From: a virus
Lineage: Duplodnaviria > Caudoviricetes
Strand: one strand, 5' to 3'
IMG/VR virus record: IMGVR_UViG_3300008954_000001
DNA length: 64,000 nucleotides
Shown here: piece after piece, positions 7,997-45,809 of the stretch
Position numbering within the stretch: position 1 is the first letter of the stretch
Layout of the letters: the number at the start of each line of letters is the position of its first letter
Position numbers and translations under genes: made by a program
The notes under the pieces: generated by a model
What the model was told of the DNA's origin: nothing
The model's database searches: none
Seen by the model: the letters and a program-made list of their open reading frames with translations, nothing else

Positions 7997-7997
7997 C

Positions 7998-11429: not shown

Positions 11430-11443
11430 TCTCTGCCCCTACC

Positions 11444-12091: not shown

Positions 12092-12166
12092 TTGTCTAAC
12101 TCCTTCGGGGTCTCTCTCTCCGTGTATTCAATAGGTCGATTACCGATAGAACGGCCTGTTGTTGAA

Positions 12167-17188: not shown

Positions 17189-17237
17189 ACAAAGCCTCTA
17201 AAGGCTGAGTAGAATAGCCTCACAACCGACTAACGGA

Positions 17238-18254: not shown

Positions 18255-18280
18255 GCCCCTCTCATAGATAAGGGACCAAA

Positions 18281-18285
18281 TATAG
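18281..18285 (-). promoter_or_regulatory. CTATA motif, candidate late-promoter core
   Basis: In the 18255-18305 spacer. Confidence 0.3.
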
Positions 18286-18305
18286 AAACTTGATTGACGA
18301 CTATT

Positions 18306-26320: not shown

Positions 26321-26348
26321 ACACTTCCTCTGTCTGACCATAGGAAGC

Positions 26349-27305: not shown

Positions 27306-29999
27306 CTAAACCCCTTCATCGGCTAAGAGTGCCGCCGCATCAATTTCTTCTTCTCCACCGCCGCCCCCTTCAGAAGACTCCTTCGCAGCAATGATCGCTT
27401 TGATTAGATCCAGAATAACCAGAGGCAACCCGCCAGCCACCACAACGGCACCATGACCAACTTCTTCGGGGCCGCCATCAGGCTTGCTTTCCGCTGTCAT
27501 AAACTCGCTGATCAAGCCTTGGGTTCCCGCCCCCGTTACAACCAACATCTGAAAATCAGCGGAAATCTTGAAGTCTGAAAGCATCCGAAGGATGCCCTGA
27601 ATCCGTCGAATCAACTGCTGAATCTGCATGATCCGAGACTCAATCATCTTAATGTAGTTCAAAATCTGCTGAATGATTGCCAATAAGCCTTCTCGAAGCC
27701 CTTTTAGAAACTGTAATAGCTTCTCAATGAACTCCTCCACAGGCTGTAAGAAGGTGTCCAAGGGTCTTATTACGATCCACTTCCCCTCGGAAGATAGGCG
27801 AGTAGCAACATTAAGTACGGTCAACGCTGAATTAAGGACATCTTTACTAAAAAGGTTTCGGGCGGGGATCGCAACAGCGTTGCCTTCTCTAAACTTTGTG
27901 ACCCACTGCTCATCGTTTAGCTTCGCCATGTCAGCACGGGACATCGCAGTTTTTTTCATCCCCACAAACACGGGGACATTGTCCATATTAGCGTCAAGCT
28001 GTTGGATAGAATAAGTTGCAGCTTGAATCCCCAGAAAAGCATCGGTCGCCCACCGTGGGTTACAGCCGTCAAGCGCACTCTTGAAATTCCAACACCAAGC
28101 CAATCGCATCATATGTACGCCAGGGGTAGCCTCCGAGAAGGTGTTGAACCGATTACAGTGCTCATAAATCGTGAGCTTTTTGGCTTCTTCAACGGCGAAC
28201 ATATATCCAGGTTCGGGCACCCCACTACCGATACTTTTACTGACGTCGCTCCCATCAGCCGTAAAGAGTGAGGTGCCGTTAAATTCTAACATTTCCATAG
28301 GAAACAGGAGGGCAGATGAATGTTGTTCAACTAAACCCTCGAAAACAGCTTCGGGGATGCCACTCGACATCCGAGTAAACTCTTCCGCTATCGCATTAGC
28401 TGCGACCGCAAGTTTCGTTCTGGACTCAATACCGGGTGACCAATCGGACCATGGTGCAATACCCCCAAGGGCTTTGTTTAACTTGCCCGCAAGCGGTAGG
28501 AAGTTCGTGACTGCCTGTCCAAAGGGAGCCTCCTTTTGCGACTCAGCGTCCAAATCCCCTCGGCATAAAAGAGCGATGACGGCAGCGTTCTGCACCATCT
28601 GCATGAATTTCTTCTTTGCATCAGACGGGAAGCTGATCTTGATCTCTTGAGAGCTTCGACTCCGAGAAGCGGGTTCGGGCCAAACCCTGCACGTCACAGG
28701 CTTGGCGGGGTTAGCGATGTTGATGATCTCGAAGCCAGATTGCCCCTCGTTCTTTTCTTCATCTCCCATCCACTTAGGGGCACCATCATGGCCCACACCT
28801 TCACCACCAGAAGCTATCGAAACCCAAACATCACGGGCTGGCTCATCCTCAGGGGTCGGTTTCCCCGACGCAACACTCTTGATTGCATAAGGCATCTCTT
28901 CTTGAACGAGCTTGAACTTGTACTCAGGGAAAAAGAACCGAGTCGCAGCGTTCATGTGAATGACATGCTGCTTTTGTCCAATTGGACCGCCTTGGGATGC
29001 CTCTGCCTTGATCAACTCGTTTAGATAGACAGGCTCTTTGTCTTGTGGGCCTTTCACCAACCAAACACCCTGCTGGCCAGGGCCCGCAGGGGTGGTCACT
29101 GGCCCGTTGCCTGTTCCTAAATATTGCTTGTCCTTCACCAGACAGGCGGAACCCCCAAAGATCCTCAAAGGCCCGCCACCAACCTCAATCGGAGCTTGAA
29201 TAAAGCCGTTCTCCTTCTTACCAGCGGGTCCGGTGCCTCCCGCTTGCGGTCTGGAATATCCAGGCCACCACCCTCCAGGAAAGGTTGAGATTTCTACAAT
29301 GCAACATTCAGGGGGGAGTGGGGTAAGGGGCATCGAATAAGGTTTAGCGGGTGAGGCCGAAAACCCCCAAGTCAGGTTAGCCCTTGTTGGCGGGCTGTCG
29401 GGGGATTCCCAATGGTCCTTCAAATTCCCCCCGAATCCGAACTCGGATACGAACTCATACTTCACATCGGCAGGGGTTTGGAGGAACTTGCCTCCACCCA
29501 CATTGGAGAAAAACTTTACCAGCCCCATAATCGCATTGTAGGCTTTTATGAGGTCTGAATAATCAACTCCCATGTAGAAAAAGAGACCGAGAACGCCAGA
29601 AGCGGTACTGAAATCAGGGCGGGAAGGGTCGGTGCTGTCGATCAGCCAGTTAAAGGCTCTGGCCTCAAACGCCCCGTAGCCCCCCTCCAGTTCCTGAAGG
29701 GCTGCTTTCCAATCCGATGCGTTAACCCAAGTGTCCCAATCTCCTCGGAGATACAGGCCCGCTTTCCTCAGGTCGTTAGCGAGACTTTCAACGAGCGCAA
29801 TAAGCGCATCTAAAATAGCGAGCATTGGAGACAGCAAACCGAGAACGAAAACCTTACAAATCTCGATAATGATCAATACGATATCTAAGAACACCACAAG
29901 GAGTTCTAAAGTATCGTTGATAGCCGTAATGATCGGCTCTAAAAAGGGTGGGGGAACTTCAATCGAGGCCCCGCCCCATTTGGCTGCCTCCTCTGCCAT
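27306..29999 (-). CDS. Hypothetical protein with hydrophobic N-terminal and coiled-coil C-terminal helices, 897 aa
   Basis: N-terminal LELLVVFLDIVLIIIEICKVFVLGLLSPMLAILDALIALV is strongly hydrophobic. C-terminal heptads FIEKLLQFLKGLREGLLAIIQQILNYIKMIESRIMQIQQL. No family recognised. Confidence 0.8.
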   Translation of the reverse strand: MAEEAAKWGGASIEVPPPFLEPIITAINDTLELLVVFLDIVLIIIEICKVFVLGLLSPMLAILDALIALVESLANDLRKAGLYLRGDWDTWVNASDWKAALQELEGGYGAFEARAFNWLIDSTDPSRPDFSTASGVLGLFFYMGVDYSDLIKAYNAIMGLVKFFSNVGGGKFLQTPADVKYEFVSEFGFGGNLKDHWESPDSPPTRANLTWGFSASPAKPYSMPLTPLPPECCIVEISTFPGGWWPGYSRPQAGGTGPAGKKENGFIQAPIEVGGGPLRIFGGSACLVKDKQYLGTGNGPVTTPAGPGQQGVWLVKGPQDKEPVYLNELIKAEASQGGPIGQKQHVIHMNAATRFFFPEYKFKLVQEEMPYAIKSVASGKPTPEDEPARDVWVSIASGGEGVGHDGAPKWMGDEEKNEGQSGFEIINIANPAKPVTCRVWPEPASRSRSSQEIKISFPSDAKKKFMQMVQNAAVIALLCRGDLDAESQKEAPFGQAVTNFLPLAGKLNKALGGIAPWSDWSPGIESRTKLAVAANAIAEEFTRMSSGIPEAVFEGLVEQHSSALLFPMEMLEFNGTSLFTADGSDVSKSIGSGVPEPGYMFAVEEAKKLTIYEHCNRFNTFSEATPGVHMMRLAWCWNFKSALDGCNPRWATDAFLGIQAATYSIQQLDANMDNVPVFVGMKKTAMSRADMAKLNDEQWVTKFREGNAVAIPARNLFSKDVLNSALTVLNVATRLSSEGKWIVIRPLDTFLQPVEEFIEKLLQFLKGLREGLLAIIQQILNYIKMIESRIMQIQQLIRRIQGILRMLSDFKISADFQMLVVTGAGTQGLISEFMTAESKPDGGPEEVGHGAVVVAGGLPLVILDLIKAIIAAKESSEGGGGGEEEIDAAALLADEGV

Positions 30000-30308
30000 T
30001 TAGATGCCGCCCCCATGCTTGATCTTCTTGATCTTCATGTGAAGGTCTTGGACAAGTGCTCGATCTTTCTGAAGCTGCATCTCTAATAGCTTTTGCACCT
30101 CAGTCATCATTTGAGCACCGTCTTTCATGTACTCCAACTCATCTGCACCAATGTCTCTGGTTATGTCCAACTTTCCCGAAGTCATGCCTTCTCGCAAGAC
30201 TTTCAACTCAACCAGTTTCGCCCGAAGCACTTCCACCGTTTCATTGTGTTCGGTTTCTAAAGCCTCTCGGACTGCTTTTGCTTTATCTTTTGCTTCTTGA
30301 TCACTCAT
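30000..30308 (-). CDS. Small coiled-coil hypothetical protein, about 102 aa
   Basis: ATG at 30308 has GGAGG upstream and follows the stop of the giant ORF by 1 nt (ORF track starts at 30371). Helical, charged sequence. Confidence 0.7.
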   Translation of the reverse strand: MSDQEAKDKAKAVREALETEHNETVEVLRAKLVELKVLREGMTSGKLDITRDIGADELEYMKDGAQMMTEVQKLLEMQLQKDRALVQDLHMKIKKIKHGGGI

Positions 30309-30309
30309 A

Positions 30310-33300
30310 TCAACCTCCCATTGATTCCTGTAAACGCCGCATACGCTCTCGTTCAATGAGGCGTTCAACAAGCTGCGCTTTCCAATTACGAATATTAGCC
30401 AAAGTACCGTCAGTTTTAGTTGTCCGAAGGAAAAGCCACGCCAACCGCTTCTGTCGAATACGGTCTGTCTTATCCAAAATCTGATCGATTCGTCCTAACA
30501 ACAACGGAAACCCATCCTCCTCTGAGAACTTCGTATAGAAGGGATCTGGAGTATCGTTAGGGGGATGTTCAATATCGAGAAGGATATCCTCCAAGATTAC
30601 CCGTCGATCCAACGCCGATAAGCAATCGGAATCATTCAGGAAAGGGGCATACTGGTATTGGCCCGCCAAACCGTACAAGAAGTTGTTTCGAGGAACCCCC
30701 AACCCTGTGTCTGGGATCGTCGGGTCACCTAAATCAAAGGAGTGTCGCTCGTTTTGGAAATCCCAATACGTCCCACTCTTGTCTCCCCGCATGGCCCCCT
30801 CGAAGTTTTCCATAAGAGACAGAATCCGCTCACGGTGGAACAAAATCATCTCTACCGTGTCATCTTTCAGGAACTTCGTGGGTCGAATGACCTTGTACGA
30901 AAAGGGTCCAATCGAGAACGGGGTTTCCTTGAAGGAGTTGTGGGGAGGAACCCCTGTTTCACCCCCTGGCTCATCCCAAGCGGGGCCGCCATTCGCCCAC
31001 AGTCCTTGATGGGGATCTTCTCCAGCGAACGCCGTGGGCCGTAGATCCCCTTGACCTTCTCGACCGTTTGCCGTCCCATCCAGCGGATCAATCTCTCCTG
31101 ATAAGGAAGATGCGCTAATCGTTGGGTAAAGGGCGAAGAAATTAAGAGGGGTAGACCCGCCTCCGTGTAGCTTATCAATTGGATTTGGTTGGCCTGAAGA
31201 CCCGATGAGTTCGGAAGCTCCGAGCCGATTTGGACTCACCTGCACCCGTGTTTCTTCGATCTTCTCGATCTTGTAATAGCCTCGGTTATCGTCAAGCTCG
31301 CCCGGATAACCTTTCTCGTAACCATCAGCTTCGCTGACTGCGGTGCCAATATCTCCAAAAGGCCGTAAGCCTTCTTCAACGGGGTCGGGCTGTTCTTGTG
31401 TGTTGTCCCAACCTTCCACTTCTCCGGCAGGGTCAATAAGGAGATAGTCCCCTTCCTCGATGCCTTCCGATTGGAAATTGATCTGGCCGTCCTCCAAGCC
31501 AGCATTTGTGTCCGTGAGAAAGTTTACGGACGCACCATATATGTCTGTATTGGGGTGTGGGGGATCGCCGGGTTCGGGAACGGGCAAGCTGGAAGCGTCC
31601 CACTTCACAATGCCGCCAGCGGCGGGGTAGCCGTTTTCGTCATTCCCCGGCCCAAGTGCCGCCCGCCGAGTCATGATGATCTCTTCGGTAGCCAACTCTA
31701 AAAGCTGTTCGTTGGACTGCTGGTGAGGCACAGGTGGCCTGAACAAGTAGATTTCAAGCTGGTCCCCCGCTATGGGATCGTCTCCCACAAACCCTGGCGG
31801 CCCGATCTGAATCTCTGTTCCTTGCAGCCAACCAGCCCCTATATCCTCCAAGGTGCCTTCGACCTTGCTGATTTCCCCCCAACCTCGAAGCTCCCCCGTG
31901 GTCGTGTTCATCACTCGCACAATGTCGCCAACATTGATGTTCACATCATCATCGGTAAGAGGCCCAAGCTGAGTTCCCCAACCTGTAATGTCTTCGGCAT
32001 CGGGTGGGGGCTTCACTATCAACTTACCGAAGGTGTACCCCTGCGTATAAGAGACACACTCGGAACGGCGGGTTTCATAAGCGAAGCGTAAGCCCTTCAT
32101 GGCATCCGATAGTGGGTCCAAAACATAGTTATGGAACCTACGGATGCGACGAACGGAGAACTGTACTCGTTCTACAAAGTGATCAAAGGGGTAATCTGGA
32201 ACCGTGTCACCATCTTCATCAGCGATGAAGTCTAAGACAGTTCGTTCACCGACCTCATTCGGGTCAAGGCTTTCCTCTGTGGCTGGCACAGTGCCGTTAT
32301 CATCACAAACAACTGAACGGGTCGCCCGACCTAAATCAAAGGTCGGCCTTGGGAAGTTGGGTTCAAGGAAAACCCCCGCCTCTGCCCAAAAGGTCGCATT
32401 GAATACCGTACCAGGGAGCAGACAGTTGAGACAGTTGTTTGCCACCGAAGCGGTGGGGTCGTTGATCCCAAATTCTCCACCAAGAGACAGAAACGAAATA
32501 TCAATGTATGTGGGGATAGTCTCGTAGGCGGCCAGAGCGTTCTCGTCTTCTTGGAACTCTCCATGAACCCAACCCGTCGCAGGGGTCTTACCTACCAGAA
32601 TATGTCCCTCTGGACCCTTATCGGGGTTGACCCCCATCCAATCGTGTTTGCGGATACGGGCACGGTTGTAAAGCCCGTCATAAGGCAACGGCGGTTCGTA
32701 ATCCCCGTCTCCATGGGCGGTCCAAGTTTGGGTGTCCCCATAAGCCATATCTTCATTTTGAAGCTGAATATCTACGAACCCACGAATAGCTCGATGCTCT
32801 CGTAAGCCGTCTACGCCGAGATCGGTCGCCCTTGGGTTCGGGTCGTCGGGAAGCTCGCTCCAATCATGGCCTGACAGTCGAATATCGGGGTACTTGGTAG
32901 TGTTGGGGTGTTTGATATTGATTGGAAAGAACTTCGCTCCTGTGATGTTCTTTCCAACAGAAGCGATCACTAACTCTTTAGCGTCCTCGTAAGAAAGAAC
33001 GGTGCCTCCCCCTCCTTTTGCCGTATCGAGATCAAGCGTAAAAGTTCCTGCCGCCGCATCAATCGCCGTGTATTCGCACCGAAGAACCGCTTCATCCAAG
33101 TCGGTCTGGTTCATACTGTCGGTGGGGTTTTCAAACAGGATGTAAAGGTAAGCCTCAAAAAGACCTACACCTCCGGGGTCTAACCAACTTGTTCCGTTCG
33201 TAGTGGGTGCGCCGTCAAAAGTTCGGAGACCTGAAACGGTAAGAATGTCGTTGGCCTCATCAAAAGCTGTGATAGCTGGAACACGAAGGTCCAACCACCC

Positions 33301-36300
33301 ATCATTTGTGTTCCAATTAACTGTTTCTTCGGATGCTCGAACAGGTCGCATCGGGGCTTTTTGCCCGTTGATGGTTCCAGTTCCTTCCCAAGCGGGATCG
33401 GGATAAAACGTCCCCCCCGCTGGTGTCAGATTTTTCCCGTCCGAATGGTTTTGGGGGTCGAGGCCGTAGCGCACCAAATAGGTGCCGACTTTAGTAGAGG
33501 CGTACTCTCCTGGCCCTGTTTGAATGTAAACCACATCTCCCGCTTCCACTTCGGGGCACTTGAAGGAGCACTCATCGGGATCGTTCAGATATGGCATAGT
33601 TTCATCCATACTGTACGTTGAGATACGATTCGGGAACGAGCTTGAACCCGTTAACGGGTCTGCGTCTGCGTCTTGGTGCCAGAGCATGTCCCCATATCTT
33701 CCTTCGGGCAGATTGGGGGGGATCACCAGCGAGGTTGGTGTCAGGTCAGAGGACGGGATCGCCGCTGTCTTGGCCGCTTCTGTGAAGGTGATTGGGACAT
33801 TCCCGTGGGCTTCAAAGCCCATCACTCTCAAGACCCCATAACCAGTTCGCCAATAGCCCACACCGTCAATCGTAGGGGGTTCCTCTCCAGCAGGTATGTT
33901 GTCGGGATCGATATCCGTCATCCAATCGTGTCGAGGAAGGAAGGTGAACGGAACGCCCCCATTAACATGCGCCATGTCGTTTACGTTGAGGGGGATCTCT
34001 ACTGGCAATCCTATCCAGTTGAAGTAATCGGAGTCGGTTTCAATCGCTTGCCCCGTGACCTTGGAGACGTTCAGATCCATTTCCAAGTTGATCTCGGAAA
34101 TCGGATGGGTGGTGCCTCGAACTTTCCCGTTACGGACATCCACAGGGCAGGTGAAGGTCAGACGGTCTGAATCAATGTACGCATTGACTCCATCGATAAC
34201 CTCCACGCTCATAAGCACTTCCTCATAAGCGTCGGCAAAATCGCTCACAATGGCGGGGGAGTGATCAATAATATCCCCTTCCCACACCTCGGCATGGCCC
34301 CATGTGTAGCGTTCACGAGGGATAAAGGGGGCAATACTTGGGTCTCCCGAACCATCGTTGATTTCATACGGAAGGTTGTCCGTCAGGTCGATATGGACAA
34401 ACCTCGTCCAATCGAACCATGAACTCACGGCGTTGGGATCATGGTCAGGATTAGCCAACCCTTCGTCGGGGTGGCCTGGAGGGAACGGGTCTGAATACTG
34501 TTCGGGAGCTTCGGGGTGGTAGGTCCGAATCACCATCACCGCACTCGGAGAGTCGTTGGTGGTGTACAGCCATTGTTCGTGCAGGGTTCCACCTACCCCA
34601 TCGGGTGTTTGGATATACCCGATGGGGGAGCCGTCTATTTCAAGTTGGAACACATGCGCTGCACCTGCCCCGCCCATAAGTTCGGGATCGTCTCCCATCG
34701 TGACTTTGACGACATCGAGCGTAAGGAGCACGGAGCCGTCTCCCGCAAGCGCATCGGGTTCGTAAGAGTAAGTGATTGGCGGGCCGGGATCTTCGATCAA
34801 AGTCGCCCGTTGTAGAAGCTGGAAGGTCAGCTTGGTTCCGACTTCTGCTTGTGCAAGAAGGTCATTCAACCCCCCTGTAGCAACATCATATCCGGGCGTA
34901 CCGCTGGAAGGATCGTAGTAGCCACTTCCAAACGGAGTGGTGTCGTTCGCCGCCCCGTCATCTACATTGAAGCCGATGATCTCGAACTCAAGCCTTGTCT
35001 CGGTGTATCCCTGCTCATGGGGGAAAAGAGGGTCCGAACCATTTACAACGGTCTCTCGAACCCGAAGCCCCGACTCCACATAAATAGCGTCCGACTCGAA
35101 GTTCCCCATCGTCGCCATGGCCCGATTGATTTCATAGTTGATCGGGGTTTCAGGCTTCGACCGAGTAACGAATCGAGGGACCGAGATAACGGAATACCTG
35201 TCTGGCTCTTCTCCATGAACGGTGTAGCCGCCTACAGACAAGAACCCTTGGACCCCTGCTGGTGCAGGGAGTGGAGCACCTTGATCTGTTTCAATAAGGA
35301 CCAAATCTCCCGCTCGGAGATCCCCCAACCCACTACCATCCTCGTAAGTACCACCCACAGGGGCAGCGTCAGCCTCTAACTTCAACCCTGACCCGTCTGC
35401 TTCTGCAAGAGGGAAAGCCGTGTTGAAAATCTCATCGGGATAAACAGACTTCCACACATGGGGGAGTGGGGTGAAAGTGCTGTCCTGCTGCATAATGGCG
35501 ATAACGCTCGCCATAGCCTCCCTGAGCCGCACCAACTCTGTGTTGGTAGACTTCATATAGGGGAGGGTGTAATCCCCGCTGTCGTCCCGTGTCTCGCCTT
35601 TGAGGGCGGGGATCGCAAGGGGGGTCAAGCTGGAATTATAGAAATCCGCATCCCCCTCAATACGTTGATGTGGGTTCGGCCCGTGTTGCCCAAACATCTC
35701 GTGTATTCCGAGCATTGGAGTGGACCATTCAGGGAAAGTAAGGTCTCGAATCCGCCCGCTTCCTGAAACAGTGTAATCAAAGCCTTCTCGGTAGGTGGGT
35801 AGGCTGGAAGCGTATGCTCCCAAGTCACTAAATGAGGGATCGTCGGGGTCTACGCCTTCCGTTGAAACCCCGTCTCCGACCAGCATGACCAAAGTATCAG
35901 AATGGGCCAGCGTGATTGGCTCCTCGTTGTTAGCGGGATCAATGATCATGTTGGGATTGGTGATGATGTCCCCTGAAGCAAAGGTCATCACGCAGCCCTT
36001 GATGATTTCTCCAACGAAGAGTTCCTTGAACTCCTCGTTCGGACCCCACCCAGTCTTTTCGTTGTATTTCGGAACCACCATATCGCCATTCGGGTGTCCG
36101 AATTGGAGCCTCATACCAACGGCCCATGGTGGAACATGATCTTCCCAGTTACCCGTATTCAGGTCGGGCAATCCGTTTTCAGGGTCGGTGGTGGCAAACG
36201 AAGCTATGTTGGGCCAGCCCTCCTTTAGGGGGAAATCGGGCAAATCCACCACACTGGCGATTACGGCGGGGCGGGGGATCTCGGAAAAGGAATTTGGGTC

Positions 36301-39300
36301 TGCAACCCCACCATCAAACAACTCCTCGTCCAGTTCGGGGAACCCGATAATACTGTATCGAAACACCCGTGCTCGTGCGGTTCGTGGCCGCATGGTGGTG
36401 TCCGTAACATTTGTAATGGGGCCAATAACAGGGTTCTCCACTTGACCGATAGTCGATAGGAAAGTGCTTCGGAGTTTCCAATCCATGATCTTGAGGAAAG
36501 AATATGTCCCAAAGTCCATATTCTTAGGGTCAGCCCCTAATCCCGGATAGGTGGTGGTGAAGTAATTAGCCTTATTCGGGAAGATGCGAGAAAGATAATG
36601 CGTCTCCTCCATCGAACGAATCCGACCCTTGATCTCAATCTGAGGCCAACCAGGAAAACGCCATCGGATACCTGAGACCCTAAAACCAATCACTACTCGG
36701 TCGTCCACATCGTTTTTGATGTATTCCATCTGATTGTCGATCAGCAGTTCTCGCCAATCGGAAGATGGCATTACCCCATCCAACTCTTCGGCAGAGTCGA
36801 TGGAGAAATCTGTCGGGTCCACAATCAAATCATCTTCGTCTACGATGACATCTGTATCCGGGGGCATAAACCTCAAGAAGGCTCGCCCATACGCATAACG
36901 AGGGTTCAATTTCCCTGAAACAGGGTTGGTGAAGCCAGGGGGTGTGTATTCCAGCCCCTCTCCAACCCAAAAACGGAACTTACCGTCTCGATCTCCAACG
37001 ATTCGGCCCGTAGCGGCCTCGCTGATCTGTTCAAACCCAACGCAAACTTCATTGAAGAAGCTCAGATAGGCACGGGCTGCCCGATCAGTGTCATACAAAT
37101 GATCTTGTTCAACCTTGATCCCAACCCGACCGTTCTCCCAGTTCTTATCTCCACCAACAGCAAGCGTAGAGCCGTAAGAACTTTGCTTGGCGGCGGCCTT
37201 CTTGATGATTTCTGTTGCCGCTTCGCCCGCAAAATCCAACAGTGGGATGGCTCGGTAATAGAACGAGTCTGGTGTGTGATAGGAATACGTCCCCATCAGC
37301 AGGTTCCCCAACAAACCGTTGCCTTCAGATGGGGCAACCTCGTGAAGGTATCGAAGATTGAAAGTGGGGAACTGAGGGTAGCCCTCGACCATTTTAGGCT
37401 TCACTACTCGGATTCTAATCCTACGGAAAGTTAGCCGTTGGTCGCTCTGAATGTACTGTTGGATTGGGTACTGGAAATCGATATCCCCTGTTTGGGGATC
37501 AGCGATATAGTCTTGGAACGGGGTCATTGTGCGACCTGGAAGGGTCGTCCCAAACTTATCGACCTCTCCCCACAAAACGACATCGGTCTCTTCGGATGCC
37601 AAAAAGGGCCTTCCAAAACCTAAATACGTCGTATCGTCAGGGGGGTAGATGGGTCGGGTGCTGACCAACACTTCATCGTCCCCGTACAAAATGCCCTTAG
37701 GAAGGGGTGGGGTGATGGAAACGGTTGTCCTTGTGCCGTCCTCGGACAGTGCCAACCCTGTAATCGTATGGGGAGAGCCGCCGATCTCAATCAAGAAGCC
37801 TTGGCCCAACGCCTCGATCAAGTTCGCAAAGAAAATAACCTCTCCCCGTGTTTTCGGGGTTGGCTCAAAACCTACGTTGGAGGGTTCGGGTTCATCGGGG
37901 TTTCCGAAAACAAGCCGTTCCCCTATCGGAACCAGAAACCCGTGTGGTGAAGAAGCTGTGTTACCCCAAAGGTTCCCACTTGGGTCTTCGGAGATCACCA
38001 CGGGATCAGAAGGATCTACCTCTCTTGCTACAGGCCATTCCGTAATCAGGCTTAGAACATCATTTCCAGGTGCTCTGGACCCTGCTCCCGACGATGGGCT
38101 TTCAGGATAAAAAGTAACTGTGGTTAGGTCTGTTTCCGCATCGTAGGCGACAGCTTTCAAGTAAAAGAGAACCGACCCAAGACGCATCAGTTGGCCGGGG
38201 TGTAGATCCGCACTCCGATCTTCTAAAAGCTCAAATGAGGATACCTTTCCATCAAGGAAAAACGGTGGGCGGTACACGGGAGGTGCCGAAACCGTATAAA
38301 CCGACTCTCCCCCAAAGGCTTCAAGCACCGCATAAGTAATCGTGACCTTACGGCCAGCCAAAGTAGCGGCATATGTCCCATCCCAAACAGGAGTCGTCTC
38401 AATTATGGGGGAGTCAGGGTCTAAGGGGTCGGACAGCACAGCTTCAGGAAGGTCGGGTACATCGTATTCAAGTGTGATCTCATTCGTTTCGTAATCGACC
38501 GACGCTATGATCGGCCCATATTCTGAGGCCATCTCTGGACCCACATAGATAATAGGCTCAATGTCCTGACGGACTGTTCGCCCTGTCGGATTGAACTTGA
38601 AGGTGGTGTTATTGACCTTCTCACATTCTTCGGCTCGAACATGCAGCGGTAGGAACTCGACGATTTCTGGCAGGATGTTGTCGTCGTCATCTTTTAGAAG
38701 CTCTCCCGCCGCATTTGTCGTCTGATAGGTGGCTTCCACAATTTGCCACTCAAGCAACTGCTCTCGGAACATGAAAGCACCAGCCATCGGATTGAGAAAC
38801 ACATCGGTTTGATCCTCTGTGACCATCCGAGAATCCCAATACACTTGCTCACCCATATTGTTCGCAATATCGATCTCGCTAAGAGCAATCGTGCCGTCAA
38901 CCGAGTTCACCTCGGCTTTCCCCGCTTCCAACAGTTCGGGAGGGAAAAGAGTCTCTTCGTAAATGACGATTGCTTGACCATAATCGTCAAGAATCTGACT
39001 GCTGAACTTTAGCTCACGAGTATCTGCTGTAATTTCAACCCCTGTGGGGTCTTCACTGAAATCATCGCTTGTCGGAACTTCGACAAGCTCATCCGAAGCA
39101 ATAAGAAGCGTGGCGATCCGAAGCCGATAATCCCCCGAAGCAAGATGGGTGTCGTCAGGGATATGGTTGGAAGTCAGAAACAAGGAAGCGTTCGCCAAAA
39201 GTCCTAACTCGGTAGTTTCCAACCACCGCACTGCGGCCCTTGGCGCAAAGTAAGATAGCCCGTCTACTTCGGATTCGATCAAAGTGTGGTGCAGCCCAAA

Positions 39301-42300
39301 ACGAATCCGAACTCGTCGTTCACGAGCCAAGTCTTGACTCACATTCGCTATTAAAGCGTCAGTCCCGATCACCCCAACAGGAGATAGTAGGTGAATCTGA
39401 AACGTCTCTCGTGGCATGTGATTGAAGCGTTTGTAGACATAATCAACACTCAATTGATCGTCGATCTCATCGGGGGTTCGTAACGAGTAGACCTCCCACG
39501 AAACCACCCCATCTGAATCCGATGGGAAATTGGGCCACACGGTAAGAGTGTCCTCGTCAAACGCCTCGATCAAATAGGAGCCGACAGAATCCCCTGTGAG
39601 GACTTTCAGGCGGGCACCAATGGCAATGTCAGGGATAGCGTTGAAGCCAACCCCCTCAGGCCCCGCTGAGTCGTCTGTGAACACATTCCCACCCTCATCG
39701 AAGGTGCCTTTCGCCCCCAAGGATAGAAGTGCTCCGATCTCCTGAATCAGGATAGCGTTCCCTGTCGCCCCTTCTTGGGGAAACAAGTAATCTTCTCCGT
39801 CTGTTTGATACTTATATCCGTCCGTACCGGGATCACGGCTTAAGAAGAAGCCTTTGAGGGCGGGATGTAGGCTTTCGGGAACAACCCCTTGAACCCCGAA
39901 GCTGATTGTAGATACGGGGGTCTTGGTTTGAAACGCTACCGCCCTACTCCCCAACCAAACAAAGCGACCGATCCCAAACTGGTGGAGGATATCCTCCATG
40001 TGGACAAGACTTCGCTGGTATGGACCATCAAAAATCTCAAAGAAAACCCCTTCATCAACACCAGCCACATCTTCCAGCGGGGCTTGTTGAAGGAACATAT
40101 AGGGGGAGCCACCAACATCCCCCAAATAAAGGCTTTCAATGCGGTTCGTGGCCCGAAAGTCGGGAGTTCCGTCATCGTTCCCCTTATTGAAAGGGGTTCT
40201 TTTGAAGCCGATGCAACCCCCGGTATCTGGTAGCCAGTTCAAGTCTAATGAGGTGCCAGCCAAATTGACATCTGTAAGGGGGTAGGATGTCTTCCAGAAG
40301 GGGTTGAAGCCTAAAGCCGCACACCCTGAAAAGTCCTTCTCTCCGTCCACCCCTGGAAGGATCTCAATCATCCCCTCACCCGAAGTGGCCGTTAGGAAAA
40401 GACGGTTTCCGATGTAGCCAGCTTCGTAGCCGCTGCCGTCCAGAATAAGGTTGATGCTTTCGGAGACTTCCTTCGCCGTATATGTGTCGGGATCAACCGT
40501 CACTTCTTCTGTAAGTGAGAGAGCTTCCCAGATTTTGTAATGACTTCCCCCAACAACTAACTGCAAAACCTCGTCACCACGAAGAGCGTAGGGTCCATCT
40601 TTCCGAGAAAACATGCGGATATCGGACGCATAAAAGGCTGGCGTAAAGTCTGTGTTTTGGAAGTAAAGTGGCAACCCCTGTCGCTCATCTTGGTTAGGGG
40701 CTGACCGATTGAATACAAGGGGTGAAGTCTCCGCCCCACCATGATTAGAGGAGCCATAAGTAGTGTAAACCTGAGTCAGGCTTGGGCCAAAAACCCCATC
40801 CAAGTCATCGGGGTCTTTTTTGACCACCAAATCCTCAAAAGCCTTATTGGGGTTGAATAGGAAAGTGTCTCCAACCCCCCGACACTTCCGAACTACGCCT
40901 GACTTCCCCGGCCTTCGTCCAACGACCTGACTAAAATTAGGCTCTCGCCCTGTCTTGTCCTCTTCGATCCTTATTCCAGAAACACCAAGGCCGGGAACTG
41001 GAATCGCTACGGGAGCGTTATACCCATCAGACTCCGTAAACTCATCGGTCACAAGTGCGGGAGCCTTTAACGGTTGGGCAACTCGGCACATAGCAACGCC
41101 GTCGTAGTAAAGGGTAGCCCCTGACCACAAAGGCTCAAAATCATCGTTTGGGGCATCCACCTCCCCCATATCCGCTTTTGTTATGTCAGCGGCACTCAAC
41201 TTGATTTGACCTGTCGTCAAAGACACGCCAACTTGACCCGTGTTGATAATCGAATCGCCCAACTGCTGATCGTTATCCGCAAACTGAACGTCCAACCACT
41301 GTCGATTTCCGATCTTCAGTAGGGGTCTTTCTGTAGAACTTGGGATCGGAGAAATGAATAGAGGTTCGAGATCCGTGCCAAGGATCTTCCCCACTTCACC
41401 TTCAGACTCCGACTCGAAGATATCTTGTATGTACCAAATAGTCTGGCCCGCATACTGAGCAAAGACTCCTGGGTGCCACTGAATAATGCCGTTCTTGTCC
41501 CCAACGATCCCAACGGGAGCGGGGTCAAGCACAGAAAAGTCGTAGGTGGCATCATCAATAATGCTGTCAGGTACAACCAAGATCCCACGGAAACCAATCG
41601 TGCCTGCCTCATCGTCCCCTAAAGGGATTGATCCAGCATCAGGACGAACCCCTAAGCGCACCATGGCTACGGAATCAGGGATTTGTGTGCCGACTAAGTA
41701 ATCCCCGACAACCAGATTCTTTGGTCGAGGGGCTAACTGAGTTGTGGCTTTTTCAGCGTCCAATCGGCCCAAATTCTTGATGGGGCCGCCCTTGTAGGGT
41801 GCCCAACGCTGATCTTTCCCGCTAAACCCAAAACGAGTTTGAGAAGGGTCATTGCGAGTCCACCAAAACTTAGGGGGGGACAGATAATAACCAACCTCTG
41901 TGACCCGATCTCCTCGTTTATGGCTCAACCCCGCCACAGAGTTCTCAGTTGGACTCAGCACACCCCGATTGAAGACGGTGTCCTCAACATAGATCACGCC
42001 AGAGTTGGGGGCGGGGCAAGAAATGTTGCCATCGGCTACCGAAAGGGTCACATCATCCCAATCGTCTGACCAATCCCCTCTACGGACGTTGATATAAGCC
42101 ACCCCTGATATGGTTCGGCCACCGTCATCTGTCAAAATGACTCGGCTGCTGGCCGTCAAAGGAGCTAAAACCTGCGCCACTACCTCTAAGGCTTCAGGAA
42201 CAACCTCTCCCTCTGGCATATAGAGTTCAAACGGCTCTGTAAGGGTCAGACTGTCAATGTCCAACACCTCCGCCACAGTTACGGCGTATTCAGTCCCAAA

Positions 42301-42804
42301 GGAATCCTCAAAAATAATGGTGGCATCAGTGCTCAGTTCAGAAACAAAATTTGTCCCAAGCCCTGTCACCAAAGTCGAGTCGTTCATAAACGCTACGATG
42401 CCCGTCAAGAACACGGGAAGAGTATCGTCCTCATCGAGACTGTTACAGGACTCAGACCCGTTTACAGGTATCCTACAAGAGCCTTGGGTCACCACGAAGT
42501 CGCCACCCTCAACCGTAGCGACACTCCCTGTGGTAGCGGCGAATACCAAGTATTCCTCTAATTCGCCCTCATTCCCCATAAGAACTGAAGAACGGTACTG
42601 ATCGACACAAGGATGGGTTGGGTGATCTCCCCAAGCAGTTCGGAAGCCTTCGGAATACCCAAACCCAATGGGAGTGTGAGGTTCCGTTCCGTCAGAGAGC
42701 TTCTTAATGTCGAAATCGACACCCCCCCGTGGTGCCCCCGTTTTGGGGTCATTCGAGGGGGCTACTCTTGGCCCTCTAAGTACGTGTCCATCAAAATTGC
42801 TCAA
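30310..42804 (-). CDS. Giant acidic beta-rich virion protein of unknown function, 4164 aa
   Basis: Uninterrupted 12.5-kb ORF between the spike-tip candidate and the wedge genes. Recurrent short beta motifs and a helical C-terminus. No family recognised. Confidence 0.9.
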   Translation of the reverse strand: MSNFDGHVLRGPRVAPSNDPKTGAPRGGVDFDIKKLSDGTEPHTPIGFGYSEGFRTAWGDHPTHPCVDQYRSSVLMGNEGELEEYLVFAATTGSVATVEGGDFVVTQGSCRIPVNGSESCNSLDEDDTLPVFLTGIVAFMNDSTLVTGLGTNFVSELSTDATIIFEDSFGTEYAVTVAEVLDIDSLTLTEPFELYMPEGEVVPEALEVVAQVLAPLTASSRVILTDDGGRTISGVAYINVRRGDWSDDWDDVTLSVADGNISCPAPNSGVIYVEDTVFNRGVLSPTENSVAGLSHKRGDRVTEVGYYLSPPKFWWTRNDPSQTRFGFSGKDQRWAPYKGGPIKNLGRLDAEKATTQLAPRPKNLVVGDYLVGTQIPDSVAMVRLGVRPDAGSIPLGDDEAGTIGFRGILVVPDSIIDDATYDFSVLDPAPVGIVGDKNGIIQWHPGVFAQYAGQTIWYIQDIFESESEGEVGKILGTDLEPLFISPIPSSTERPLLKIGNRQWLDVQFADNDQQLGDSIINTGQVGVSLTTGQIKLSAADITKADMGEVDAPNDDFEPLWSGATLYYDGVAMCRVAQPLKAPALVTDEFTESDGYNAPVAIPVPGLGVSGIRIEEDKTGREPNFSQVVGRRPGKSGVVRKCRGVGDTFLFNPNKAFEDLVVKKDPDDLDGVFGPSLTQVYTTYGSSNHGGAETSPLVFNRSAPNQDERQGLPLYFQNTDFTPAFYASDIRMFSRKDGPYALRGDEVLQLVVGGSHYKIWEALSLTEEVTVDPDTYTAKEVSESINLILDGSGYEAGYIGNRLFLTATSGEGMIEILPGVDGEKDFSGCAALGFNPFWKTSYPLTDVNLAGTSLDLNWLPDTGGCIGFKRTPFNKGNDDGTPDFRATNRIESLYLGDVGGSPYMFLQQAPLEDVAGVDEGVFFEIFDGPYQRSLVHMEDILHQFGIGRFVWLGSRAVAFQTKTPVSTISFGVQGVVPESLHPALKGFFLSRDPGTDGYKYQTDGEDYLFPQEGATGNAILIQEIGALLSLGAKGTFDEGGNVFTDDSAGPEGVGFNAIPDIAIGARLKVLTGDSVGSYLIEAFDEDTLTVWPNFPSDSDGVVSWEVYSLRTPDEIDDQLSVDYVYKRFNHMPRETFQIHLLSPVGVIGTDALIANVSQDLARERRVRIRFGLHHTLIESEVDGLSYFAPRAAVRWLETTELGLLANASLFLTSNHIPDDTHLASGDYRLRIATLLIASDELVEVPTSDDFSEDPTGVEITADTRELKFSSQILDDYGQAIVIYEETLFPPELLEAGKAEVNSVDGTIALSEIDIANNMGEQVYWDSRMVTEDQTDVFLNPMAGAFMFREQLLEWQIVEATYQTTNAAGELLKDDDDNILPEIVEFLPLHVRAEECEKVNNTTFKFNPTGRTVRQDIEPIIYVGPEMASEYGPIIASVDYETNEITLEYDVPDLPEAVLSDPLDPDSPIIETTPVWDGTYAATLAGRKVTITYAVLEAFGGESVYTVSAPPVYRPPFFLDGKVSSFELLEDRSADLHPGQLMRLGSVLFYLKAVAYDAETDLTTVTFYPESPSSGAGSRAPGNDVLSLITEWPVAREVDPSDPVVISEDPSGNLWGNTASSPHGFLVPIGERLVFGNPDEPEPSNVGFEPTPKTRGEVIFFANLIEALGQGFLIEIGGSPHTITGLALSEDGTRTTVSITPPLPKGILYGDDEVLVSTRPIYPPDDTTYLGFGRPFLASEETDVVLWGEVDKFGTTLPGRTMTPFQDYIADPQTGDIDFQYPIQQYIQSDQRLTFRRIRIRVVKPKMVEGYPQFPTFNLRYLHEVAPSEGNGLLGNLLMGTYSYHTPDSFYYRAIPLLDFAGEAATEIIKKAAAKQSSYGSTLAVGGDKNWENGRVGIKVEQDHLYDTDRAARAYLSFFNEVCVGFEQISEAATGRIVGDRDGKFRFWVGEGLEYTPPGFTNPVSGKLNPRYAYGRAFLRFMPPDTDVIVDEDDLIVDPTDFSIDSAEELDGVMPSSDWRELLIDNQMEYIKNDVDDRVVIGFRVSGIRWRFPGWPQIEIKGRIRSMEETHYLSRIFPNKANYFTTTYPGLGADPKNMDFGTYSFLKIMDWKLRSTFLSTIGQVENPVIGPITNVTDTTMRPRTARARVFRYSIIGFPELDEELFDGGVADPNSFSEIPRPAVIASVVDLPDFPLKEGWPNIASFATTDPENGLPDLNTGNWEDHVPPWAVGMRLQFGHPNGDMVVPKYNEKTGWGPNEEFKELFVGEIIKGCVMTFASGDIITNPNMIIDPANNEEPITLAHSDTLVMLVGDGVSTEGVDPDDPSFSDLGAYASSLPTYREGFDYTVSGSGRIRDLTFPEWSTPMLGIHEMFGQHGPNPHQRIEGDADFYNSSLTPLAIPALKGETRDDSGDYTLPYMKSTNTELVRLREAMASVIAIMQQDSTFTPLPHVWKSVYPDEIFNTAFPLAEADGSGLKLEADAAPVGGTYEDGSGLGDLRAGDLVLIETDQGAPLPAPAGVQGFLSVGGYTVHGEEPDRYSVISVPRFVTRSKPETPINYEINRAMATMGNFESDAIYVESGLRVRETVVNGSDPLFPHEQGYTETRLEFEIIGFNVDDGAANDTTPFGSGYYDPSSGTPGYDVATGGLNDLLAQAEVGTKLTFQLLQRATLIEDPGPPITYSYEPDALAGDGSVLLTLDVVKVTMGDDPELMGGAGAAHVFQLEIDGSPIGYIQTPDGVGGTLHEQWLYTTNDSPSAVMVIRTYHPEAPEQYSDPFPPGHPDEGLANPDHDPNAVSSWFDWTRFVHIDLTDNLPYEINDGSGDPSIAPFIPRERYTWGHAEVWEGDIIDHSPAIVSDFADAYEEVLMSVEVIDGVNAYIDSDRLTFTCPVDVRNGKVRGTTHPISEINLEMDLNVSKVTGQAIETDSDYFNWIGLPVEIPLNVNDMAHVNGGVPFTFLPRHDWMTDIDPDNIPAGEEPPTIDGVGYWRTGYGVLRVMGFEAHGNVPITFTEAAKTAAIPSSDLTPTSLVIPPNLPEGRYGDMLWHQDADADPLTGSSSFPNRISTYSMDETMPYLNDPDECSFKCPEVEAGDVVYIQTGPGEYASTKVGTYLVRYGLDPQNHSDGKNLTPAGGTFYPDPAWEGTGTINGQKAPMRPVRASEETVNWNTNDGWLDLRVPAITAFDEANDILTVSGLRTFDGAPTTNGTSWLDPGGVGLFEAYLYILFENPTDSMNQTDLDEAVLRCEYTAIDAAAGTFTLDLDTAKGGGGTVLSYEDAKELVIASVGKNITGAKFFPINIKHPNTTKYPDIRLSGHDWSELPDDPNPRATDLGVDGLREHRAIRGFVDIQLQNEDMAYGDTQTWTAHGDGDYEPPLPYDGLYNRARIRKHDWMGVNPDKGPEGHILVGKTPATGWVHGEFQEDENALAAYETIPTYIDISFLSLGGEFGINDPTASVANNCLNCLLPGTVFNATFWAEAGVFLEPNFPRPTFDLGRATRSVVCDDNGTVPATEESLDPNEVGERTVLDFIADEDGDTVPDYPFDHFVERVQFSVRRIRRFHNYVLDPLSDAMKGLRFAYETRRSECVSYTQGYTFGKLIVKPPPDAEDITGWGTQLGPLTDDDVNINVGDIVRVMNTTTGELRGWGEISKVEGTLEDIGAGWLQGTEIQIGPPGFVGDDPIAGDQLEIYLFRPPVPHQQSNEQLLELATEEIIMTRRAALGPGNDENGYPAAGGIVKWDASSLPVPEPGDPPHPNTDIYGASVNFLTDTNAGLEDGQINFQSEGIEEGDYLLIDPAGEVEGWDNTQEQPDPVEEGLRPFGDIGTAVSEADGYEKGYPGELDDNRGYYKIEKIEETRVQVSPNRLGASELIGSSGQPNPIDKLHGGGSTPLNFFALYPTISASSLSGEIDPLDGTANGREGQGDLRPTAFAGEDPHQGLWANGGPAWDEPGGETGVPPHNSFKETPFSIGPFSYKVIRPTKFLKDDTVEMILFHRERILSLMENFEGAMRGDKSGTYWDFQNERHSFDLGDPTIPDTGLGVPRNNFLYGLAGQYQYAPFLNDSDCLSALDRRVILEDILLDIEHPPNDTPDPFYTKFSEEDGFPLLLGRIDQILDKTDRIRQKRLAWLFLRTTKTDGTLANIRNWKAQLVERLIERERMRRLQESMGG

Positions 42805-42816
42805 ACCACTACACCA

Positions 42817-43413
42817 TCAAGAAATCATGTTGCTTGGACTTGATCCCGCCGCCACAGCGGGAGCGGGAGTCACGGGGGAGATTGCACCTGTCCCAAACCC
42901 TAAGGCAAGGTTCAAAGCAATCCCATTTCCAATACCTGTTGCTAACATGGGTAACAATACCCCCTTCATACCCACGGCCTTGAATCCGCTCTGAATCGAC
43001 TTGATTAATTTAGGTGAATTAGACACCACCACCTTAGCAATATCGGCCCCACCTGAAACACCTGCAACCGACCCCCTGTAATATGCGCTTTGATTTATAG
43101 TGTTCGAGAACCCGATAGAGATCGCAGTCGCCATCTCCACCATCTTGACCCCCTTTAGGCCAGCAGCAAGGCAAGCCCCTATCACCACTGGCGGTGCCGG
43201 GGGGCAAATTACCTTACCGCTCGATATCATCCCCGCACCCGCTGGCCCTACTGGACAAACACCGACCAGCATCGCATTAGAGGTTTGGGCATTGATCCAG
43301 TTCTGAACCCCCATCCCAATCCCATTGGTCATCATCAACCAACCCGGAGCCGTGGACTTGAAACTGCTTGCTGAACGAATGTTTTGAGCAAGCGACACCC
43401 CAATAACAGGCAT
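42817..43413 (-). CDS. Small Gly/Ala-rich protein with three internal repeats, candidate spike-tip protein, about 198 aa
   Basis: ATG at 43413 has GGAGG RBS (the ORF-track start at 43491 overlaps the spike gene). Immediately downstream of the spike. Three repeats similar to LATGIGxG. Confidence 0.6.
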   Translation of the reverse strand: MPVIGVSLAQNIRSASSFKSTAPGWLMMTNGIGMGVQNWINAQTSNAMLVGVCPVGPAGAGMISSGKVICPPAPPVVIGACLAAGLKGVKMVEMATAISIGFSNTINQSAYYRGSVAGVSGGADIAKVVVSNSPKLIKSIQSGFKAVGMKGVLLPMLATGIGNGIALNLALGFGTGAISPVTPAPAVAAGSSPSNMIS

Positions 43414-43424
43414 AGCAGCCTCCT

Positions 43425-45776: not shown

Positions 45777-45809
45777 GGGTGCCTCCTAAGGACTCTACCC
45801 TGTGGCGGA

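What the first reader, a model, noticed from the sequence alone, without database searches (positions are those of the whole stretch)
30310..42804. 4164-aa protein of unrecognised family inside the baseplate gene block
Seen: a 12.5-kb uninterrupted ORF, Asp/Glu/Gly/Pro-rich, placed between spike tip and wedge genes rather than with the fibres. It is one fifth of the window and has no motif I can assign. Inference: a giant baseplate scaffold or outer ring that could define a new baseplate architecture.
Basis: partly seen in the sequence, partly recalled or inferred. Interest (0 to 1): 0.85.

Follow-up and report, generated by a model that had tools for sequence, protein, structure and literature searches.

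The report
Giant baseplate-block protein of huge phages
A real 4,164-residue gene in the tail-baseplate gene block of a marine huge phage belongs to a large, unnamed family of 2,200-4,900-residue proteins that always sits between the spike and wedge genes; it is most likely a new kind of baseplate building block, but its exact role is unproven.

Summary
The ORF at 30310-42804 (minus strand, TTG start, 4,164 aa) is real. It is not a mis-assembly: independent contigs from three samples match at 99% or better, and full-length homologs exist on hundreds of contigs.

No Pfam, PHROG, NCBIfam, PDB-sequence or ESM Atlas match was found, for this protein or for 16 relatives tested.

The family is large:
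- 353 clusters at the 50%-identity level.
- 161 loci in IMG/VR, on contigs up to 619 kb.
- No cultured phage.

Gene order is almost invariant: hub-like, spike-like, Gly-rich ~200 aa, GIANT, small ORF, ~900 aa, ~300 aa, gp25-like, Baseplate_J. For example, the ~900-aa gene follows directly in 56 of 57 loci.

A confident AlphaFold model of residues 1500-2560 (pLDDT 86) shows small beta-barrels of the kind inserted in phage tail proteins, plus a helical/beta body with no match found in any fold library. It is not the tape measure; a separate 1,515-aa TMP-like gene exists.

Best reading (about 0.5): a multi-copy structural baseplate protein. Its ends are conserved for assembly, and a fast-evolving, expandable segment (about 2560-3450) is exposed. 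"Outer ring" remains untested.

The scan flagged this same stretch in other windows, but no other DNA.

The parts
30310..42804 (-). Giant ORF, 4,164 aa (about 0.46 MDa), TTG start, TGA stop
   Evidence: start confirmed by homolog N-termini; family
35125..41907 (-). Conserved core, residues about 300-2560 (55-72% identity to close relatives, 24-40% to distant ones)
35125..38307 (-). Modelled segment, residues 1500-2560: three small beta-domains, long helices, then a large beta-rich body. Mean pLDDT 86.4, pTM 0.65
36961..36993 (-). Most conserved motif, DRDGKFRFWVG (residues 1938-1948), directly after a 37-residue helix
32455..35124 (-). Variable, indel-rich segment, residues about 2561-3450 (22-37% identity even to close relatives). 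This is where length expands in larger family members
30313..32454 (-). Conserved C-terminal block, residues about 3451-4164, containing beta-barrel domain(s) and terminal helices. Motifs VRRIRRFH and DDNRGYY
30000..30308 (-). Small helical ORF (102 aa) whose ATG lies 1 nt after the giant's stop, behind a GGGAGG Shine-Dalgarno. It ends in a conserved H-G-G-G-x
27306..29999 (-). Co-inherited 897-aa partner: hydrophobic/amphipathic N-terminal helices and a C-terminal coiled-coil-like region
   Evidence: directly downstream in 56 of 57 loci
26367..27302 (-). Co-inherited 311-aa partner of no known family
   Evidence: present in 55 of 56 loci
42817..43413 (-). It travels with the giant gene
   Evidence: 56 of 57 loci; also next to the giant in the detached cassette L007
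43425..45776 (-). Spike-like gene, 783 aa (gp5/gpV-like OB motif read by eye; not confirmed by any profile)
   Evidence: 50 of 52 loci
45833..50716 (-). Hub-like gene, 1,627 aa (weak phrog_52 'tail protein' hit; gpD-like motifs by eye)
25241..26341 (-). gp25-like sheath initiator / wedge gene
21755..25240 (-). Baseplate_J (gp6-like) wedge gene
53278..57825 (-). Tape-measure-like gene, 1,515 aa (helical, Lys/Ala-rich, Gly-zipper hydrophobic stretch). It fills the role the giant might otherwise be assigned
   Evidence: sequence features; no family hit

Best explanation
The gene encodes a virion structural protein of the baseplate of a marine huge contractile-tailed phage. It belongs to a large, undescribed family: 3,250-4,940 aa in the main clade and 2,160-3,000 aa in a remote clade.

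Proposed mechanism:
- One chain of about 0.46 MDa folds on its own into many small beta-barrel and beta-sandwich domains arranged around a conserved helical/beta body.
- Several copies are built into the baseplate together with the co-inherited partners (Gly-rich ~200 aa, small HGGG protein, ~900-aa protein, ~300-aa protein).
- Together they form an accessory layer next to the hub/spike and the gp25-gp6 wedge ring.
- The conserved core and C-terminal block make the assembly contacts.
- The fast-evolving, expandable segment at about 2560-3450 faces outward, toward the host surface.

Shown here: the gene is real, the family exists, the synteny is conserved, the core is beta-rich and multidomain, the conservation pattern is as described, and the protein is not the TMP.

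Inferred: presence in the virion, copy number, position in the baseplate, partner contacts, and exposure of the variable segment.
For: Synteny: in 74 non-redundant IMG/VR loci the order is hub-like, spike-like, Gly-rich, GIANT, ~900 aa, ~300 aa, gp25-like, Baseplate_J, all on one strand. Counts are ~900-aa gene next in 56/57, ~300-aa gene 55/56, gp25-like 41/45, Gly-rich 56/57 and spike-like 50/52. The same order holds in five other contexts, including a relative at about 25% identity.

Selection on the full length: 20 full-length homologs, 353 clusters at the 50%-identity level, ends conserved, and only in-frame indels in a natural variant.

Structure: the core model has pLDDT 86.4 and pTM 0.65 as a single chain. 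Model residues 125-216 match beta-barrel insertion domains of phage tail proteins: K1 lyase at Z 9.4 (rmsd 2.0, 74 aligned), T5 Dit pb9 at Z 7.8, and tube, tailspike and baseplate chains at Z 7-8. The module recurs along the chain and in the C-terminal block. No enzyme family or fold was found.

Conservation pattern: the variable middle shows 22-37% identity against 55-72% in the core, and carries about 490 extra residues in a 4,941-aa member.
Against: There is no direct evidence that the protein is in the virion. No cultured relative exists among 50,697 phage records.

The fold matches are local and of middling Z, a range that can arise from common arrangements. About 500 residues of the best-modelled part were barely sampled by the hit lists.

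Only 1,061 of 4,164 residues were modelled well; the C-terminal model is poor (pLDDT 54).

In L001 and L007 the cassette is separated from the wedge genes, which fits a self-contained device as well as it fits a wedge-bound layer.

The Gly-rich and 897-aa partners have hydrophobic segments that could point to membrane activity rather than scaffolding.
Confidence: 0.5

Rival explanations
1. A device mounted on the hub or spike. The giant protein, the Gly-rich protein and the 897- and 311-aa proteins would form a central tip complex below the spike: a central fibre or envelope-penetration assembly that works like lambda gpJ or T5 pb3/pb4, rather than a peripheral ring.
For: The gene sits directly after the spike-like and Gly-rich genes. 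The Gly-rich gene stays with the giant when the cassette moves (L007). There are weak local fold similarities to lambda gpJ and to siphophage tip and Dit chains, at Z 5-8.
Against: There is no sequence match to the tip-attachment or Phage_Tail_Tip families. The similarities concern one small, common barrel. A separate spike and hub already exist. Copy number and symmetry are unknown.
Confidence: 0.2
2. An ejected or membrane-channel protein set. The giant and its partners, which have hydrophobic or Gly-zipper segments, would leave the virion at infection and act in the host envelope or cytoplasm, as pilot or ejection proteins do.
For: Hydrophobic or amphipathic helices occur in the 897-aa protein, and the ~200-aa protein is Gly/Ala-rich. 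Many invariant Asp, Arg and Gly positions in the core (DRDGK, NDxDD, DDSGD) could mark an active or metal-binding site.
Against: The chain is very acidic and made of many folded beta-domains, so it is ill suited to pass through a tail tube. No enzyme family or fold was found. The motif DRDGK lacks the third Asp of DxDGD polymerase sites. The gene lies in the baseplate block, not the head block.
Confidence: 0.1
3. An assembly factor. The giant would act as a scaffold or jig for building an oversized baseplate and would not be kept in the mature particle.
For: It is encoded among the assembly-ordered baseplate genes. It is followed by a small, translationally coupled helical protein that could be a chaperone.
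Against: The cost of a 12.5-kb gene and the fast-evolving, expandable middle segment fit an exposed virion part better than an internal jig.
Confidence: 0.07
4. An artefact: a mis-assembled fusion of separate genes, or a non-coding open frame.
For: Logan contigs of two runs break near 38.15 kb. Three IMG/VR relatives have the gene in two ORFs.
Against: Full-length single ORFs of 3,446-4,941 aa occur in 44 complete IMG/VR loci. The alignment is continuous across the break. Contigs from three samples are at least 99% identical.
Confidence: 0.01

Closest known systems
phiKZ outer-peripheral baseplate proteins (gp27, gp26, gp139, gp130, gp157; PMC13250141)
   Same: Accessory layers added around a conserved hub and a wedge-heterotrimer core in a jumbo myophage. 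This is the likely working analogue.
   Different: phiKZ builds the layer from many copies of mid-size proteins (the largest cited is 898 aa). Here one chain of 4,164 aa would do the job. No sequence or global fold similarity was found.
T4 gp7 / gp10 and P2 gpI-type wedge periphery proteins
   Same: Large multidomain baseplate proteins encoded beside gp6/gp25 homologs.
   Different: They are four or more times smaller. No Pfam hit was found to Baseplate_wedge or Tail_P2_I. The best Atlas shape match to a Baseplate_wedge cluster has TM of only 0.15. The giant lies upstream of gp25, and a separate 506-aa gene follows Baseplate_J.
Giant virion structural proteins of T4-like cyanophages (S-PM2, Syn30, S-ShM2, S-TIM5 entries in BFVD)
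   Same: Very large, acidic, multi-beta-domain proteins encoded in tail or baseplate regions of marine myophages. There are weak Foldseek hits, E 3e-4 to 2e-3.
   Different: TM scores are at most 0.09 by query. There is no sequence homology. The synteny differs.
Beta-barrel insertion domains of phage tail proteins (Klebsiella K1 lyase 139-229, phi92 gp150 708-792, T5 Dit pb9 B-domain, Mystique tube, lambda gpJ 482-564)
   Same: The small barrel at residues about 1624-1715 superposes at Z 7.8-9.4, rmsd 2.0-2.8 A, 70-76 aligned residues. The module recurs in the giant.
   Different: It is a single domain of about 90 aa out of 4,164, with 12-21% identity. It says nothing about the function of the whole protein.
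Tape measure proteins
   Same: A very long gene in a tail module, next to hub genes.
   Different: The giant is beta-rich with 7.5% Pro and 9.9% Gly. A separate helical 1,515-aa TMP-like gene lies upstream.

Membership tests
Tape measure protein | Predominantly alpha-helical, extended chain | tested here: not met
   The core model is mostly strands and small barrels. Pro is 7.5% and Gly 9.9%, evenly spread.
Tape measure protein | The single such gene of the tail module, after the tube and chaperone genes | tested here: not met
   A separate 1,515-aa helical gene with a Gly-zipper stretch lies at 53278-57825.
gp7 / gpI-type baseplate wedge protein | Sequence match to the Pfam Baseplate_wedge or Tail_P2_I families | tested here: not met
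   No Pfam hit at E<=1 for the protein or 11 relatives, nor at E<=0.01 for 4 remote members.
gp7 / gpI-type baseplate wedge protein | Helical core bundle and trifurcation unit shared with two gp6 chains | tested here: inconclusive
   Long helices at residues about 1855-1932 are present. No gp7 or TssG chain appeared in the hit lists, but small elements in a 1,061-residue query can be missed.
Trimeric tail fibre / tailspike | Intertwined trimeric shaft or beta-helix, with a variable C-terminal receptor-binding end | tested here: not met
   The core folds confidently as a single chain of globular domains (pLDDT 86, pTM 0.65) with no beta-helix. The C-terminus is among the most conserved parts. 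The oligomeric state itself was not tested.
Lambda gpJ / siphophage tail-tip proteins | Homology to the tip-attachment J or Phage_Tail_Tip families | tested here: inconclusive
   No sequence hit. Only one small barrel matches, at Z 5.2-6.5.
PAAR/Rhs-type spike cargo | PAAR domain and YD/RHS repeats | tested here: not met
   No Pfam or NCBIfam hit. No sequence repeats by BLAST.
Virion RNA polymerase (N4 / crAss-like giant proteins) | DxDGD catalytic motif in a double-psi beta-barrel | tested here: not met
   The conserved motif is DRDGK, with Lys invariant in place of the third Asp. No polymerase fold appeared in the hit lists.
Phage baseplate structural protein (functional class, not a homology family) | Conserved position among hub, spike and wedge genes | tested here: met
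Phage baseplate structural protein (functional class, not a homology family) | Presence in purified virions | not testable with these tools
   No cultured relative.

The most novel reading that the evidence does not exclude
The five-gene cassette (Gly-rich ~200 aa, giant, small HGGG protein, ~900 aa, ~300 aa) is a self-contained tail-tip organelle that moves as a unit and is specific to a widespread clade of aquatic huge phages. In it, a single 0.4-0.55-MDa chain with a previously unseen core fold does the job that phiKZ and T4 give to many separate peripheral proteins. That would be a new baseplate architecture, with an expandable host-facing segment.
Probability: 0.3. Interest if true: 0.75.

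Novelty: new variant of a known kind. Interest (0 to 1): 0.55.

Why it matters
Huge phages are common in oceans, lakes, soils and guts, but almost none are cultured, so their infection machinery is known only from phiKZ-like and T4-like models. This family takes up about 4% of a genome of about 320 kb. It is kept full-length in hundreds of lineages and has no annotation in any library.

Knowing where it sits would show how baseplates scale up in phages with genomes of 300-600 kb. The fast-evolving middle segment is a candidate host-range determinant that could help link uncultured huge phages to their hosts. The well-modelled, highly conserved body of about 500 residues is a good target for structure determination.

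Tried and rejected
- Family and sequence libraries: Pfam, PHROGs and NCBIfam on the giant gave no hit. Pfam on 12 and then 4 further family members gave none. PDB-sequence profiles of the full family and the deep core alignment gave none. ESM Atlas feature searches of both halves gave nothing usable.
- Fold libraries for the core model: Foldseek PDB gave no match at E<=0.001. BFVD, AFDB clusters, AFDB Swiss-Prot and Atlas gave only weak local or generic beta-domain hits. Model residues about 440-930 were barely sampled, so 'new fold' is not claimed.
- C-terminal model: pLDDT was 54, and only one barrel was usable.
- Complex prediction: the giant's C-terminal 265 residues with the small HGGG protein gave no verdict, and this is not used as evidence.
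- Expression: no RNA holder was listed.
- Neighbour identities: profiles of the spike-like, hub-like and 897-aa genes against PDB sequences gave nothing. The Atlas search of the 897-aa protein rested on a poor model. The 311-aa gene's homologs are all unnamed.
- Internal repeats: self-BLAST found none. Only profile-profile comparison found weak ones. The first all-against-all run timed out.
- Read-through of the in-frame TGA between the Gly-rich ORF and the giant: rejected, because the two genes are in different frames in L002 and 100 nt apart in L004.
- Tape-measure reading: rejected.
- Other: the genome search 'own' holds no genome. A viral-contig scan with the deep alignment found no usable pattern, so it was repeated with the 19-sequence alignment. 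The literature has no description of this family.

Full report
OBSERVATION

The minus strand carries an uninterrupted frame from 42804 to 30310, encoding 4,164 residues with a TTG start. The upstream 224-aa ORF is in the same frame, separated by one TGA. In relatives the two genes are in different frames or far apart, so this is coincidence and not read-through.

The TTG start is right. Several homologs begin with Met at the aligned position and share the first 35 or so residues.

Mis-assembly is excluded on three grounds:
- Contigs assembled independently from three marine samples match at 99% or better across 29500-43600.
- A 90-95%-identical relative from a different study shows only frame-preserving indels.
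- The only shared contig break (about 38.15 kb) falls in a block that aligns without a gap in 119 homologs.

A LARGE FAMILY THAT NO LIBRARY NAMES

Pfam, PHROGs and NCBIfam give nothing for this protein. Pfam also gives nothing for 15 other family members, scanned one by one. Profiles of the family find nothing among PDB sequences, and ESM Atlas features find nothing.

The family is nevertheless big:
- A word-seeded search found 20 full-length homologs of 3,253-4,134 aa.
- An exhaustive profile search with residues 1500-2560 found 353 clusters at the 50%-identity level, 262 of them at E<=1e-30. Most are 3,200-4,100 aa, with a remote group of 2,160-3,000 aa.
- IMG/VR holds 161 relatives on contigs up to 618,736 bp. 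Complete genes there are 3,446-4,941 aa.

Among 50,697 deposited phage genomes the only carrier is the uncultured 485-kb record LR745208.1, which has a 3,642-aa homolog. Al-Shayeb et al. 2020 noted only that huge phages encode proteins up to 7,694 aa, 'some tentatively annotated as structural' (PMC7162821). I found no paper describing this family.

CONTEXT

In the window the transcription order is:
- 303 aa, 371 aa and 420 aa genes;
- a 1,515-aa gene with textbook tape-measure features (helical, Lys/Ala-rich, a Gly-zipper hydrophobic stretch);
- 221 aa and 623 aa genes;
- a 1,627-aa hub-like gene (weak phrog_52 hit);
- a 783-aa spike-like gene (OB motif read by eye);
- a Gly/Ala-rich gene of about 198 aa;
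- the GIANT;
- a 102-aa helical ORF;
- 897 aa and 311 aa genes;
- a gp25-like gene (phrog_975, 1.4e-9);
- Baseplate_J (PF04865, 7e-20);
- then further large genes.

I built profiles of each neighbour and scored 74 non-redundant IMG/VR loci, counting a neighbour only where the locus was long enough to hold it. All were on the giant's strand.

| Neighbour | Loci with it |
|---|---|
| ~900-aa gene, directly downstream | 56 of 57 |
| ~300-aa gene | 55 of 56 |
| gp25-like gene | 41 of 45 |
| Gly-rich gene, directly upstream | 56 of 57 |
| Spike-like gene | 50 of 52 |

The order also holds around a 2,164-aa relative at about 25% identity (L005). In L007 and LR745208.1 the cassette is detached from the wedge genes but stays together: the giant, a small ORF and the ~900-aa gene, plus the ~300-aa and Gly-rich genes in L007. 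The firm unit is therefore the cassette, and its usual home is between the spike and the wedge.

ANATOMY

Conservation along the chain:
- a short conserved N-terminus;
- a conserved core at about 300-2560, with 55-72% identity to close relatives;
- a variable, indel-rich segment at about 2560-3450, with 22-37% identity;
- a conserved C-terminal block ending in helices.

In a 4,941-aa member, about 490 of the extra residues lie in the variable segment.

With a 119-sequence alignment, AlphaFold2 modelled residues 1500-2560 at mean pLDDT 86.4 and pTM 0.65, with 674 residues at 90 or above. The model has three small beta-domains, then long helices that end at the most conserved motif (DRDGKFRFWVG, 1938-1948), then a large beta-rich body. 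A pTM this high for a single chain argues for a compact multidomain body that folds as a monomer. It argues against an intertwined trimeric fibre.

No library gave a global match. The local matches were:
- Model residues 125-216 superpose on the beta-barrel insertion domains of phage tail proteins. K1 lyase gives Z 9.4 (rmsd 2.0, 74 aligned), T5 Dit pb9 gives Z 7.8, and phi92 gp150 and a tail-tube decoration give Z 8.1.
- Model residues 221-299 resemble small sandwich domains of neck and contractile-injection-system baseplate chains (Z about 6).
- Model residues 642-812 resemble EF-Tu domain 2 (Z about 6).

These Z values are in the range where only a common arrangement may be shared. The best-modelled stretch of about 500 residues was hardly sampled, so I do not claim a new fold.

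Profile-profile self-comparison found weak repeats of a 50-70-residue module at several places. The best pairs were 415-542/1241-1314, 1517-1568/1649-1700 and 1042-1106/3616-3686, at 74-85% probability. This fits the barrel also seen in the one confident part of the poor C-terminal model.

INTERPRETATION

The giant is not the tape measure: it is beta-rich, and a separate TMP-like gene exists. It lacks PAAR and RHS elements. Its Asp-rich motif is not a DxDGD polymerase site. No enzyme-like family or fold appeared.

Four things fit a multi-copy structural part of the baseplate best: fixed synteny, full-length purifying selection, tail-type beta-domains, and a variable, expandable middle flanked by conserved ends. 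In that reading the ends make assembly contacts and the middle is exposed. I put this at about 0.5.

The main rival (about 0.2) is a central device mounted on the hub or spike. It is favoured by the gene's place right after the spike-like gene, and by the Gly-rich gene travelling with the giant rather than with the spike.

An ejected or membrane-acting set (about 0.1) is suggested by hydrophobic segments in the partners. It fits poorly with a very acidic chain of many folded beta-domains. An assembly-only scaffold (about 0.07) fits poorly with the evolving middle segment.

COMPARISON WITH KNOWN SYSTEMS

In working terms the nearest analogue is the outer-peripheral baseplate of phiKZ. That layer is built from many copies of proteins of up to 898 residues around a hub and wedge heterotrimers (PMC13250141). 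Also comparable are T4 gp7/gp10 and the giant virion proteins of T4-like cyanophages, which gave weak BFVD hits. None is a homolog by any test run here. I file the protein as a new family within a known functional kind.

NOT RESOLVED

- Virion presence, copy number, location and partner contacts are all unknown.
- The single complex prediction (C-terminal 265 residues with the small protein) gave no verdict.
- No RNA run was listed as holding the sequence.
- The same stretch was noted by first readers in other windows of this genome. No look-alike on other DNA was on record in the scan.

Noticed in passing
window 30000-30308 (-); L004:22305-22568; L002:21037-21267; L001 about 30612-30845: The small helical ORF that follows the giant gene (ATG 1 nt after the stop, GGGAGG Shine-Dalgarno inside the giant's last codons) ends in a conserved H-G-G-G-x tail in four lineages (KIKHGGGI, KIKHGGGL, LEHGGGS, LQHGGGQ). 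In LR745208.1 it is an ORF that no list had called. The remote clade's small ORFs lack the motif. The meaning is unknown: a Pup/ubiquitin-like Gly-Gly tail, a cleavage site, or simply a flexible end.
   Followed up: partly
window 42817-43413 (-); L007:9326-9964: The Gly/Ala/Val-rich protein of about 200 aa, read by the first stage as a spike tip, stays next to the giant gene even where the cassette is detached from spike and wedge genes (L007). It may therefore be a partner of the giant rather than a PAAR-like cap. No PAAR or other family hit was found.
   Followed up: partly
L084-L086 (IMG/VR), giant ORF at 4952-19774: A family member of 4,941 aa, the largest seen here. Most of the extra length lies in the segment equivalent to residues 2442-3461 of the window protein.
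   Followed up: partly
L035, L048, L073 (IMG/VR): In three relatives the giant gene is split into two overlapping ORFs. These could be sequencing frameshifts, real splits or programmed frameshifts; this was not examined.
   Followed up: no
L002:26274-26948: In a 418-kb relative an Endonuclease_7 (PF02945) gene is inserted between the gp25-like gene and Baseplate_J. It looks like a homing-endonuclease insertion in the wedge operon.
   Followed up: no
window 52599-53264 and 50728-52599 (-): The 221-aa and 623-aa genes after the TMP-like gene share a domain: each hits both L005:1179-1733 and L005:1749-3089. The 623-aa one ends in a glycine-zipper segment. They may be a paralogous pair of tube-initiator-like proteins.
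   Followed up: no
L001 (LR745208.1) 17875-19635 and 39073-45779: In the 485-kb phage the giant cassette lies right after a helicase-like gene. Homologs of the window's distal 1,134- and 1,143-aa genes (4592-11429) are on the opposite strand about 8 kb downstream, so the tail module is rearranged.
   Followed up: partly
window 53278-57825 (-): The TMP-like gene is 1,515 aa. By the usual rule of about 1.5 A per residue this predicts a tail of roughly 230 nm. This is an inference only.
   Followed up: no
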